The notes under the pieces were generated by a model that saw only the letters and a program-made list of their open reading frames with translations, searched no databases and had not been told where the DNA came from. From a virus: DNA of 24,255 nucleotides. Of the stretch, positions 5,069 through 6,011 are shown piece by piece (position 1 is the stretch's first letter; each line of letters begins with the position of its first letter). The position numbers and the translations under genes were made by a program. Location of the stretch: the UHGV virus genome UHGV-0262927; one strand, given 5' to 3'.

Positions 5069-5152
5069 CTATGTTCGAACATAGCAAACTCCTATGTTCA
5101 AACATAGATCTGTCCTATGTTCGAACATAGCAAGATCTATGTTCGAACATAG
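5069..5152. promoter_or_regulatory. Iteron/operator-like array: four direct repeats at 22-23-bp phasing, each holding the 16-bp palindrome CTATGTTCGAACATAG
   Basis: Copies start at 5069, 5092 (variant ...TTCAAAC...), 5115 and 5137; array ends ~60 bp upstream of a sigma70-like promoter for the winged-helix gene. Confidence 0.6.
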
Positions 5153-5213
5153 TTTTTTTAACATATAACATTGTCATAAGAATATACTTTCTATTTTATT
5201 TATAGTTCTACTA

Positions 5214-5242
5214 TTGACTTTCACTTTTTTGCATAGTATTAA
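5214..5242 (+). promoter_or_regulatory. Putative sigma70 promoter (TTGACT - 17 bp - TATTAA) for the winged-helix gene
   Basis: -35 at 5214-5219, -10 at 5237-5242, then Shine-Dalgarno AAGAGGG (5264-5270) and ATG 5277. Confidence 0.4.
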
Positions 5243-5276
5243 AATAGATATAACAAAAATAATAAGAGGGAATAAT

Positions 5277-6011
5277 ATGAATACACCAGATGCTGATCTA
5301 TTACACTTATTTGAATCATTAACTACCGAGCAAAAGATTGATATCGCAAGACGCTTACTACAAAACAAAGAAATAAAATCAACAACAGTTATTTCTTCTG
5401 ATGAAGATAAAGCTATTTCGTTTTCACAACCTTATGTATTTGCTTTTACTTCCAACTTTCGTGTTTTCTCTAATCTTGATATATCCAAGAATGAATTCCG
5501 TGTATTAACCTATATTTTGGAGTATATGGAGTTTGGAAATCTGATCAATCTTTCACAATCATCGCTGTGTAAAGCATTGAATATCGCCTCCGGTAATATG
5601 TCTAACATTTTTAAAAAACTCAGACAGAAAGGAATACTTGTAGAGCATCATGGTCATCTCTATATCAACTCTAACATTTTCGCTAAAGGAATGAGTCACC
5701 AACTGGATCAGAAACGTAAAGAACAGTTGAGCAACGCTCGCAATCTTTGCGCAGAAATAGAACAGTATCCAGAAAGTTATTCAGCTATGTCAAAAAGTGA
5801 AAGAAGAACCCTATCCTTAGAAACAGAGACCAAAGAAATCTATACTGACGCATTTGTTTTCAGTAAGAAGAAAAAGAATAACGCTGTTCCTAATCCCAAT
5901 AACAGCATACATGTTGATAAACCACGAAAAGTATATAAAAGAACAAAGGAAAATGAGGAAGCAAGAAGAAACTCTGTTGACGCAGACTCTCATATGCAGA
6001 AAGTATCCTGA
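5277..6011 (+). CDS. Winged-helix DNA-binding protein (244 aa); candidate iteron-binding replication initiator or autoregulator
   Basis: Central segment RVLTYILEYMEFGNLINLSQSSLCKALNIASGNMSNIFKKLRQKGILVE looks like a winged helix-turn-helix; start at ATG 5277 rather than the track's TTG 5214, which is the -35 hexamer. Confidence 0.55.
   Translation: MNTPDADLLHLFESLTTEQKIDIARRLLQNKEIKSTTVISSDEDKAISFSQPYVFAFTSNFRVFSNLDISKNEFRVLTYILEYMEFGNLINLSQSSLCKALNIASGNMSNIFKKLRQKGILVEHHGHLYINSNIFAKGMSHQLDQKRKEQLSNARNLCAEIEQYPESYSAMSKSERRTLSLETETKEIYTDAFVFSKKKKNNAVPNPNNSIHVDKPRKVYKRTKENEEARRNSVDADSHMQKVS

What the first reader, a model, noticed from the sequence alone, without database searches (positions are those of the whole stretch)
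5069..6011. Iteron-like repeat array, promoter and winged-helix gene: candidate replication or autoregulatory module
Four direct repeats at 22-23-bp phasing (two helical turns), each with the perfect palindrome CTATGTTCGAACATAG, lie ~60 bp upstream of a TTGACT-17-TATTAA promoter and a 244-aa winged-helix protein gene. This is the layout of iteron-controlled Rep genes and also of multi-operator repressors. A fifth palindrome variant sits beside repeat unit A at 1472-1487, so the same protein may act at a distance on the Septu flank.
Basis: partly seen in the sequence, partly recalled or inferred. Interest (0 to 1): 0.6.

Follow-up and report, generated by a model that had tools for sequence, protein, structure and literature searches.

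The report
Plasmid-type replication origin inside a genomic island
The repeat array, promoter and winged-helix gene form a complete copy of the replication module of small pHW126/pIGRK-type plasmids, carried in an excisable, mobilizable E. coli genomic island of the ROD21 family whose equivalent gene was recently reported not to act in replication.

Summary
Four 16-bp sites lie at 5069-5152 with 23/23/22-bp spacing. Three are the perfect palindrome; the second has one substitution. About 60 bp downstream come TTGACT-17-TATTAA, a Shine-Dalgarno sequence and a 244-aa gene (5277-6011).

The protein is annotated RepL and falls in the same 90% cluster as Salmonella RepL proteins, which I take to include SEN1990 of island ROD21. 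It is 38-48% identical to the sole Rep protein of 2.3-3.1 kb enterobacterial plasmids, including pIGRK.

Those plasmids carry four ~20-bp dyad-symmetric repeats at 22-bp period upstream of rep. For pIGRK and pIGMS31 that array plus a "conserved region" (CR) was shown experimentally to be the origin.

The window has every part in the same order: hairpin, a CR-like block, four iterons, promoter, rep. These are preserved in 15 further species although synonymous sites are saturated.

The fifth palindrome is a conserved distal iteron, moved away by insertion of the Septu cassette.

The best reading is an autoregulated RepL/iteron replicon of a mobilizable island. Function is unproven: a SEN1990 deletion did not change ROD21 copy number without a helper plasmid. 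This is a new member of a known kind.

The parts
1472..1487 (.). Distal fifth iteron (CTATGTTTAAACATAG), lying at the start of copy 1 of repeat unit A.
   Evidence: locate it. It fits the family consensus CTATGT-N4-ACATAG. A site fitting the consensus exactly lies 636-941 bp upstream of the rep ATG in 6 of the 15 related loci, and 4 more have one with a single mismatch. An exact site lies at -1107 in 2 of the 4 Salmonella-cluster loci.
1462..1749 (+). Repeat unit A, copy 1. It duplicates the hairpin-rich region that normally precedes the origin and forms the left flank of the Septu cassette.
   Evidence: 83-86% identical to 4658-4943.
4658..4943 (+). Repeat unit A, copy 3, the proximal copy. 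It holds a degenerate iteron at 4668-4683, three hairpins, and the hairpin nearest the origin.
4884..4920 (+). ssi-like hairpin: CAGCG..GTGATTGT-loop-ACAATCAC..CGCTG.
   Evidence: The stem is conserved and the loop varies across 16 loci. The outer pair co-varies, G-C versus A-T, between hairpin classes. Folded as single-stranded DNA it gives -11.3 kcal/mol, z = -4.1. It occupies the position of the ssi palindrome of pIGRK and pIGMS31.
4989..5026 (+). CR-like conserved block: ACTCTCTTAACTTCTTACTAATTATTTAATTATAAGCA.
   Evidence: 37 of 38 columns are invariant in 16 loci from about 10 genera, although dS exceeds 1. It contains TAACTTCTTAC, against TTACTTCTTA[AC] upstream of the iterons in plasmids L002-L004.
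5067..5155 (+). Iterons IT1-4: four 16-bp dyad-symmetric sites, consensus CTATGT-N4-ACATAG, spaced 23/23/22 bp.
   Evidence: All five small RepL plasmids examined, and contigs L023 and L025, have four repeats at a 22-23 bp period.
5191..5205 (.). Operator-like palindrome CTATTTTATTTATAG, just upstream of the -35 hexamer.
   Evidence: Read from the sequence. Nearly invariant across the 16 loci. The operator role is inferred from the IR/DR operators of pIGRK and pIGMS31.
5214..5242 (+). repL promoter: TTGACT-17-TATTAA.
   Evidence: for the sequence and for conservation. The mapped pIGRK promoter is TTGACT-15-TTAAAA. The consensus scanner does not list this site.
5277..6011 (+). repL: 244-aa winged-helix protein. 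I infer it is the orthologue of SEN1990 of ROD21.

Best explanation
Window 4884-6011 is a complete pHW126/pIGRK-type replication (REP) module. It sits in the backbone of a ROD21-like (EARL) integrative mobilizable island.

Proposed mechanism:
- RepL is a MarR-like winged-helix protein and probably acts as a dimer. It binds the four dyad-symmetric iterons CTATGT-N4-ACATAG, which are phased about two helical turns apart.
- Together with the adjacent invariant CR-like block, the array forms the origin. In the plasmid relatives this is where nicking or opening and initiation occur.
- The upstream hairpins act as single-strand initiation signals.
- RepL also represses its own strong promoter through the array and the iteron-like palindrome next to the -35 hexamer.
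- While the island is integrated the module is probably silent. It would act on the excised or newly transferred circle, as in SGI1 and the PIME elements.

Shown here: the homology, the architecture, and conservation under selection. Inferred: DNA binding, origin activity and its timing.
For: 1. Protein family.
- tblastn finds 38-48% identity (E down to 1e-31) to the Rep gene of 2.3-3.1 kb enterobacterial plasmids, including pIGRK (alignment).
- Pfam RepL scores 20.8 bits against a cutoff of 20.3.
- 51 of 68 family members hit RepL.
- PGAP names the protein RepL.

2. Array architecture in the plasmid relatives.
- All five small plasmids examined, and contigs L023 and L025, carry four ~20-bp dyad-symmetric repeats at a 22-23 bp period, 100-130 bp upstream of rep.
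- Several share the core TATG-N6-CATA with the window.

3. Experiments on the plasmids.
- For pIGRK, CR plus IT1-4 is the minimal origin in a two-plasmid assay and an incompatibility determinant. RepR is needed for initiation and represses its own promoter (PMC6854812).
- For pIGMS31, RepM binds IT1-4 and nicks just upstream of CR (bioRxiv 10.1101/2022.12.05.519187).

4. Conservation in the islands.
- The number, phase and half-sites of the iterons, a 38-nt block, the hairpin stem and the promoter are all preserved in 15 further species.
- Meanwhile repL has dS above 1 and dN/dS of 0.04-0.13, or 0.01-0.035 in the core.

5. Rep and iterons change together. An island with a RepL only 39% identical, in the same backbone position, has plasmid-type GTTATT..AATAACT repeats instead.

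6. Fold. The winged-helix core is modelled at pLDDT above 90, and the best PDB matches are MarR-family dimeric repressors that bind palindromes.
Against: - The ROD21 gene SEN1990, which I take to be the orthologue, was deleted with no change in island copy number (1 per chromosome) or in the level of excised attP. The authors concluded it is not involved in replication or maintenance (PMC10655114). The caveats are that only 3% of cells had excised the island, no helper plasmid was present, and replication after transfer was not tested.
- No record in PLSDB carries this 244-aa type as a plasmid. The single hit above 60% identity is a 4.8-Mb record. All 190 places in complete E. coli genomes are chromosomal.
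- Similarity of the CR-like block to the plasmid CR is short, about 11 nt.
- The Pfam RepL score is only just above its cutoff.
- The replication mode of the plasmid family (rolling-circle, theta or both) is itself unsettled, and the EMSA and nicking data for the plasmid Rep proteins showed some non-specific activity.
Confidence: 0.65

Rival explanations
1. Domesticated regulator. The module descends from a plasmid replicon but no longer replicates anything. RepL acts only as a MarR-like transcription factor, repressing itself and modulating host genes such as oafB, and the four palindromes are a multi-operator.
For: - Deleting SEN1990 left ROD21 copy number and attP level unchanged, but lowered oafB expression and organ colonisation.
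- The fold is MarR-like and the sites are palindromic.
- This type is never found as a free plasmid.
- In pIGRK, IT1-4 also influences the rep promoter.
Against: - A repressor needs neither the 38-nt CR-like block, which is the most conserved non-coding stretch, nor the ssi-like hairpins. It also has no need for exactly four sites at plasmid-like phasing 60 bp upstream of the -35 hexamer.
- RNA-seq of the SEN1990 deletion mutant showed no change in ROD21 gene expression.
- The published experiments did not test conditions in which other island replicons fire, namely with a helper plasmid present.
Confidence: 0.25
2. Centromere-like or incompatibility element. The array is a partition or handcuffing site bound by a winged-helix adaptor. 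It would stabilise the excised circle or exclude resident pHW126-like plasmids.
For: - Arrays of phased repeats bound by small DNA-binding proteins are typical of plasmid centromeres (general knowledge).
- The origin of pIGRK is an incompatibility determinant.
- A conserved distal site could pair with the array.
Against: - No ParA- or ParM-type NTPase lies next to the gene.
- The homologous plasmids encode only Rep plus Mob, so there the protein must be the initiator.
- The iteron sequences differ from those of the plasmids, so cross-incompatibility is doubtful.
Confidence: 0.06
3. Decaying relic or chance repeat with no present function.
For: The gene immediately downstream (6036-6827) is a pseudogene in this strain. 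The negative deletion phenotype for replication also fits.
Against: - 0 of 100 shuffles reach the observed number of sites.
- The ORF is intact with dN/dS of 0.04-0.13 across about 10 genera.
- The cis elements stay invariant although synonymous sites are saturated.
Confidence: 0.03

Closest known systems
[quoted passage not shown]
   Same: - The Rep protein is homologous (38-48% identity over residues ~15-165).
- The order of elements is the same: ssi-type hairpin, conserved region, four ~20-bp iteron-like repeats at a 22-bp period, a strong TTGACT promoter with nearby operator repeats, then rep.
- G+C content is low.
- A TATG-N6-CATA iteron core is shared with several of the plasmids.
   Different: - The module sits in a ~22-kb chromosomal island, not a 2-3 kb plasmid.
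- Rep carries an 80-residue C-terminal extension found only in the island subfamily.
- The iteron outer bases differ (C-TATG..CATA-G versus AGT-TATG..CATA-ACT), and the sites are nearly perfect 16-bp palindromes.
- A conserved solitary distal iteron and multiple repeated hairpins lie upstream.
- The internal start used for pIGRK RepR' is absent (GTA at the aligned V54).
SEN1990 of Salmonella Enteritidis island ROD21 (EARL family)
   Same: - The window protein is in the same 90%-identity cluster as Salmonella RepL proteins, with partial members from serovars Enteritidis and Dublin. I infer orthology to SEN1990 from this and from the shared gene order.
- The island backbone matches (MobQ, TraD, PilV-like, H-NS-like, AlpA-like, DUF6387).
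- Loci that encode the cluster representative, which I take to be Salmonella, have the same iterons, CR-like block and hairpins.
   Different: - The published work treats SEN1990 as a winged-helix regulator that is not involved in replication.
- It compared the protein only with Firmicute RepL proteins.
- Its text does not contain the words iteron, palindrome or binding site.
- In the window a Septu cassette is inserted in the upstream non-coding region.
RepL family (Pfam PF05732; pSN2-like staphylococcal plasmids)
   Same: The profile matches over residues 45-165, just above the gathering score. These are winged-helix initiators that lack HUH motifs.
   Different: Very distant. The published alignment gives under 19% identity.
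Replicons of other integrative mobilizable elements (SGI1 RepA/oriV; PIME repA with four iterons)
   Same: The concept is the same: an integrated, helper-dependent island carrying its own Rep gene and an iteron origin that fires after excision.
   Different: The Rep families are unrelated. The iterons lie downstream of repA in PIME. Replication has been shown experimentally for those elements, but not here.
MarR-family repressors
   Same: They are the best structural matches (prob 0.99-1.0), and they are dimeric winged-helix proteins that bind 16-20 bp palindromes.
   Different: The Pfam MarR and MarR_2 scores are below their cutoffs, no Foldseek hit reaches E of 0.001 or better, and there is no evidence of a ligand-binding function.

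Membership tests
pHW126-like REP module | Rep protein homologous to pHW126, pIGRK and pIGMS31 Rep | tested here: met
   tblastn against plasmids gives 38-48% identity with E from 5e-15 to 1e-31, including pIGRK NC_011405. Alignment. The profile search finds 737 clusters, mostly of 160-200 aa.
pHW126-like REP module | Four ~20-bp iteron-like direct repeats with 2-nt spacers (22-bp period) upstream of rep | tested here: met
   The window has four units spaced 23/23/22 bp. The same holds in L002-L006, L023 and L025, and the array is conserved in L008-L022 and L027-L030.
pHW126-like REP module | Conserved region (CR) upstream of the iterons | tested here: met
   The block at 4989-5026 is invariant in 37 of 38 columns across 16 loci. 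It contains TAACTTCTTAC, against TTACTTCTTA[AC] in the plasmids. The sequence match to the plasmid CR is short, so the equivalence rests mainly on position and conservation.
pHW126-like REP module | Palindromic ssi-like element upstream of CR | tested here: met
   The hairpin at 4884-4920 has a conserved stem and a variable loop and is stable as single-stranded DNA. Priming function cannot be tested here.
pHW126-like REP module | Origin activity of CR plus IT1-4 with Rep supplied in trans; Rep autorepression | not testable with these tools
   Shown for pIGRK and pIGMS31. For the ROD21 orthologue an indirect test was negative.
pHW126-like plasmid (the vehicle) | Small (2-3 kb) autonomous plasmid consisting of REP plus MOB | tested here: not met
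   All 190 places in complete E. coli genomes are chromosomal, inside a ~22-kb island. No plasmid in PLSDB carries this type.
pIGRK-type dual Rep | In-frame RepR' from an internal GTG (V69) | tested here: not met
   pIGRK V69 aligns with window V54, whose codon is GTA. pIGMS31 also lacks this start (GTT).
Pfam RepL (PF05732) | Score at or above the gathering cutoff | tested here: met
   20.8 bits against a cutoff of 20.3, which is marginal. 51 of 68 relatives match, the best at 5.5e-12.
Rep_3 / classical iteron initiators (RepA, pi) | Profile match to Rep_3-type WH1-WH2 initiators | tested here: not met
   No Rep_3 hit at E of 1 or better in Pfam. Some relatives weakly hit Phage_rep_O or DnaD_N.
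MarR family | Pfam MarR or MarR_2 above cutoff | tested here: not met
   17.4 bits (cutoff 24.6) and 17.7 bits (cutoff 27). The similarity is at the fold level only.
EARL / ROD21-like islands | Shared backbone: integrase, MobQ relaxase, TraD, type IV pilus genes, H-NS-like protein, AlpA-like RDF | tested here: met
   Annotation of L001, synteny across L009-L022, the Salmonella-cluster loci, and the published gene list.
EARL / ROD21-like islands | Integration at an Asn-tRNA gene with the family's direct-repeat sequence | not tested
   In L001 the island lies between zinT and tRNA-Ser/mtfA. The window contains only a tRNA-like fragment at about 11011-11065. The att sites were not mapped.

The most novel reading that the evidence does not exclude
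ROD21-like islands are conditionally replicative elements. Their RepL/iteron origin would fire only on the excised or freshly transferred circle, for example when a helper conjugative plasmid is present. The distal iteron and the repeated hairpin units would serve as single-strand origin or looping control. That same hairpin-repeat region, just upstream of the origin, would also be the hotspot where defence cassettes are captured, such as Septu here and other cargo in Pectobacterium islands. This would overturn the published conclusion that SEN1990 has no role in replication.
Probability: 0.35. Interest if true: 0.6.

Novelty: new member of a known kind. Interest (0 to 1): 0.45.

Why it matters
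ROD21-like islands occur in Salmonella, pathogenic E. coli, Klebsiella ST258 and plant pathogens. They carry virulence and anti-phage cargo, and how they survive once excised or transferred is unknown.

Recognising a complete, strongly conserved plasmid-type origin in their backbone gives a concrete, testable mechanism for that stage. It explains why the locus is annotated RepL and suggests why the one published test, run without a helper plasmid and with 3% excision, could have missed the function.

It also extends the poorly understood pHW126/RepL replicon family from tiny cryptic plasmids to chromosomal islands. The set of natural iteron variants (CTATGT-N4-ACATAG) is useful for binding studies.

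Tried and rejected
- Phage origin: tblastn against 50,697 phage records found nothing, and PHROGs gave only noise.
- Rep_3-type initiator: no Pfam hit.
- NCBIfam: no meaningful hit.
- Solved structures by sequence: one marginal hit, E = 0.096.
- Structural RNA: only sub-threshold chance hits over the array, e.g. mir-302 at E = 0.5.
- First structure model, from 12 sequences: too poor to use (pLDDT 57). It was replaced by a 68-sequence model.
- pIGRK-like internal RepR' start: rejected, because the codon is GTA.
- The 19-nt inverted repeat between the promoter spacer and the ORF (5218-5236 / 5785-5803): found only in the E. coli and Salmonella lineage, so it is not a core feature.
- First related-loci scan: failed because the alignment was too diverse. 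It was repeated with a narrower alignment.
- PIME islands considered as the host element: rejected, since they have different genes (repA, trbJ/L) and IncP helpers.
- DnaA box: only one 8-of-9 match (TTATCCAAA at 4812-4820), which is too weak to build on.
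Full report
**Observation**

The region 5067-5155 holds four copies of a 21-nt unit spaced 23, 23 and 22 bp. Three copies contain the perfect 16-bp palindrome CTATGTTCGAACATAG (5069-5084, 5115-5130, 5137-5152).

With up to three mismatches the window has five matches against 0.17 expected, and no shuffle reaches five. The fifth match is CTATGTTTAAACATAG at 1472-1487.

Reading the sequence gives TTGACT at 5214-5219, a 17-nt spacer, TATTAA at 5237-5242, AAGAGGG at 5264-5270 and ATG at 5277. The ORF 5277-6011 encodes 244 aa.

The consensus scanner does not report this promoter, because its -10 hexamer ends in A. 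However, the 5'-RACE-mapped promoter of the homologous pIGRK gene is TTGACT-15-TTAAAA, and the string CTATTGACT is shared by the plasmids and the islands.

**Where the window comes from**

Window 4900-6100 is 100% identical to several E. coli chromosomes. It occurs in 186 of 5426 complete genomes, always on the chromosome.

In strain FDAARGOS_1372 it lies in a ~22-kb low-G+C island between zinT and tRNA-Ser/mtfA. That island encodes an integrase, PilV-like and pilin proteins, TraD, a MobQ relaxase, the HNH plus AAA pair, "replication/maintenance protein RepL", DUF4756, H-NS-like proteins, an AlpA-like HTH protein and DUF6387.

The HNH plus AAA pair is Septu, PtuA/PtuB. In the window's own strain the island abuts a lambdoid prophage tail module, which accounts for the G+C step at about 11 kb.

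The protein is in the same 90% cluster as Salmonella RepL proteins, including partial entries from serovars Enteritidis and Dublin. The published description of ROD21 (MobQ SEN1980, TraD, PilV-like, SEN1990 = RepL WP_001095779.1, H-NS-like, SEN1998 RDF) matches this backbone. From these two facts I infer that the island belongs to the EARL (ROD21-like) family and that the gene is the orthologue of SEN1990. SEN1990 itself was not retrieved or aligned.

**The protein**

- Pfam gives HTH_36 at 23.2 bits (below its cutoff), RepL PF05732 at 20.8 bits (cutoff 20.3) over residues 45-165, and weak MarR, DnaD_N and HTH_24 hits. There is no Rep_3 hit.
- tblastn against PLSDB finds 38-48% identity over residues ~15-165, with E from 5e-15 to 1e-31. 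The hits are the Rep gene of 2.3-3.1 kb plasmids of Klebsiella, Enterobacter, Citrobacter and E. coli, among them pIGRK.
- Those plasmids encode nothing else, or one other gene: a relaxase, an integrase-like protein, an exonuclease or a small hypothetical protein.
- A profile search of 1.8 billion representatives finds 737 clusters, mostly of 160-200 aa. Of 68 sampled members, 51 hit Pfam RepL.
- The 80-residue C-terminal tail is confined to the island subfamily.
- An AlphaFold model built on 68 sequences (pLDDT 78, core above 90) shows a winged helix: helices at 71-83, 94-101 and 105-117, with the wing at 121-130.
- Its best PDB matches are MarR-family dimeric repressors (MftR, OhrR, MepR, RovA; prob 0.99-1.0). 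None reaches E of 0.001 or better.

**The cis elements compared with the plasmids**

Every small plasmid examined has four ~20-bp repeats with internal dyad symmetry at a 22-23 bp period, 100-130 bp upstream of rep. Examples are AGTTATGAAATTTCATAACA and AGTTGTCAAATTCGTCAACT. Several share the core TATG-N6-CATA with the window's C-TATG-TTCGAA-CATA-G.

The literature defines the family module as ssi palindrome, ~20-bp conserved region (CR), four 20-bp iteron-like repeats with 2-nt spacers, operator repeats, a strong promoter, then rep (PMC6854812; bioRxiv 10.1101/2022.12.05.519187).

- In pIGRK, CR plus IT1-4 is the minimal origin in a two-plasmid assay and an incompatibility determinant. RepR initiates replication, and RepR and RepR' repress the promoter.
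- In pIGMS31, RepM binds IT1-4 and the IR operators and nicks just upstream of CR. Both rolling-circle and theta intermediates are seen.
- Those authors note some non-specific binding and nicking.

**Conservation in related islands**

A scan of one genome per species returned 15 loci with RepL 78-98% identical. They come from Escherichia, Citrobacter, Enterobacter, Buttiauxella, Mangrovibacter, Phytobacter, Brenneria, Pectobacterium, Dickeya and Symbiopectobacterium, plus one 3.8-kb metagenome contig labelled Bacillota that is probably mis-binned. Gene order is conserved wherever the contig is long enough to show it.

The alignment of the 480 bp upstream shows five conserved features.

- **Iterons.** There are always four sites in the same phase. 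The half-sites CTATGT/ACATAG are almost invariant. The central four bases vary (TCGA, TCAA, TTGA, TTAA, GCGC, CTGA), often by symmetric double changes.
- **CR-like block.** A 38-nt block, ACTCTCTTAACTTCTTACTAATTATTTAATTATAAGCA (window 4989-5026), is invariant in 37 of 38 columns. It contains TAACTTCTTAC, which resembles TTACTTCTTA[AC] at the corresponding place in the plasmids.
- **Hairpin.** A hairpin at window 4884-4920 has a conserved stem and a variable loop. Its outer pair co-varies between hairpin classes, and it is stable as single-stranded DNA (z = -4.1).
- **Operator-like palindrome.** CTATTTTATTTATAG (5191-5205) is conserved.
- **Promoter.** The promoter is conserved.

Over the same comparisons repL has dS above 1 between genera, dN/dS of 0.04-0.13 overall and 0.01-0.035 in the winged-helix core. 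The cis elements are therefore held by selection rather than by recent common descent.

Four loci that encode the cluster representative, which I take to be Salmonella, have the same elements.

An island with a RepL only 39% identical, in the same backbone position (L024), has plasmid-type GTTATT..AATAACT repeats instead. Rep and repeats therefore change together. Another E. coli island (L007) carries a different 181-aa RepL-annotated gene with a single long inverted repeat.

**The fifth palindrome**

The site at 1472-1487 fits the family consensus exactly and matches the iteron flanks. It lies at the start of a ~290-bp repeat, unit A, that occurs three times: 1462-1749, a partial copy at 4156-4321, and 4658-4943. 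These copies bracket the Septu cassette. The copy next to the origin has a decayed version of the site at 4668-4683.

A solitary consensus site lies 636-941 bp upstream of the rep ATG in 6 of the 15 related loci, and 4 more have one with a single mismatch. In the Salmonella-cluster loci it lies at -1107: two of the four have it exactly, and the one printed in full among the others has a decayed copy. There the 1.36-kb upstream region holds no cargo.

The site is therefore an ancestral distal iteron of the origin region. In this strain it was separated from the array by the insertion of Septu, so it is not a device aimed at Septu. Its role (looping, handcuffing or marking the edge of the hairpin region) is unknown.

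**Mechanism**

The best-supported reading is an autoregulated RepL/iteron replicon of a mobilizable island.

1. RepL dimers occupy four phased palindromes next to the CR-like block, where the plasmid relatives initiate.
2. The upstream hairpins serve single-strand priming.
3. RepL represses its own promoter.

Homology, architecture and selection are shown here. Binding, origin activity and timing are inferred.

**Counter-evidence**

The main counter-evidence is experimental. Deleting SEN1990 in S. Enteritidis left ROD21 at one copy per chromosome and left attP levels unchanged, and the authors concluded that the gene has no role in replication or maintenance (PMC10655114).

That test was done with 3% excision and no helper plasmid, and the authors themselves left post-transfer replication open. 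They compared the protein only with Firmicute RepL (under 19% identity). Their text does not contain the words iteron, palindrome or binding site, although it notes the long upstream non-coding region.

In other island families (SGI1, PIME) replication occurs only after helper-triggered excision. The rival reading, that the module is now only a regulator, keeps appreciable weight. It does not explain the invariant CR-like block or the hairpins.

**Novelty**

The gene and its RepL label are known, and iteron replicons in mobilizable islands are known for other Rep families. What I did not find in the searchable literature is any statement that the ROD21-family gene sits in a complete pHW126-type REP module, or that its Rep is a clear homologue of pIGRK and pHW126 Rep.

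I file it as a new member of a known kind. Interest is moderate, because it makes a disputed function directly testable.

Noticed in passing
window 1462-1749, 4156-4321, 4658-4943: A ~290-bp hairpin-rich repeat (unit A) occurs three times and brackets the Septu operon. The GTGATTGT-loop-ACAATCAC hairpin recurs 2-5 times upstream of repL in every related island, with a variable loop and a co-varying outer stem. Whether these act as single-strand origins, protein-binding sites or recombination substrates is unknown.
   Followed up: partly
window 1223-5276; L014 and L016 about 6800-10000: The non-coding stretch between the 89-aa gene and repL appears to be a cargo insertion hotspot. It is empty (1.36 kb) in the Salmonella-cluster loci, holds Septu here, and is 2.5-3 kb long in two Pectobacterium islands.
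   Followed up: partly
window 6036-6827: The gene just downstream of repL is a pseudogene in this strain. A single TAA at codon 88 interrupts a 263-aa ORF that is intact in the Salmonella-cluster loci, where the codon encodes Glu.
   Followed up: yes
window 5044-5017, minus strand: A promoter-like site TTTACT-16-TATAAT (10 of 12 matches) points leftward, with its -10 hexamer inside the invariant CR-like block. pIGMS31 and pIGRK have a Rep-activated promoter near CR. I could not determine the orientation of those plasmid promoters.
   Followed up: no
window 5218-5236 and 5785-5803: A 19-nt inverted repeat (17 of 19) links the promoter spacer and the repL coding region. It is present only in the E. 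coli and Salmonella lineage and absent from the other genera.
   Followed up: yes
window 5277-5408 (codons 1-44 of repL): Synonymous divergence in the first 44 codons (dS 0.5-0.76) is well below that of the core (dS about 1.5 or more, or saturated) in comparisons between genera. This could reflect an overlapping cis element or recombination.
   Followed up: no
L007 14560-15275; L024 9640-10447: The replicon module is exchangeable within the island backbone. One E. coli island has an unrelated 181-aa RepL-annotated gene preceded by a single long inverted repeat. A Pectobacterium island has a RepL only 39% identical, with plasmid-type repeats.
   Followed up: partly
window about 10800-24255: The island abuts a lambdoid prophage tail region (tape measure, gpJ, tail fibre). 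ARAGORN finds no intact tRNA, and only a tRNA-like fragment is detected at about 11011-11065. The att sites were not mapped.
   Followed up: partly
window 4812-4820: TTATCCAAA matches the DnaA-box consensus TTATCCACA (from general knowledge) at 8 of 9 positions. It sits in unit A inside the conserved string GATGGATTTATCCA, which reads TTATCCATA in other genera.
   Followed up: no
window 5115-5162: Iterons 3 and 4 followed by a T7 run score as an intrinsic-terminator-like hairpin. T-runs flank the array on both sides in all related loci.
   Followed up: no
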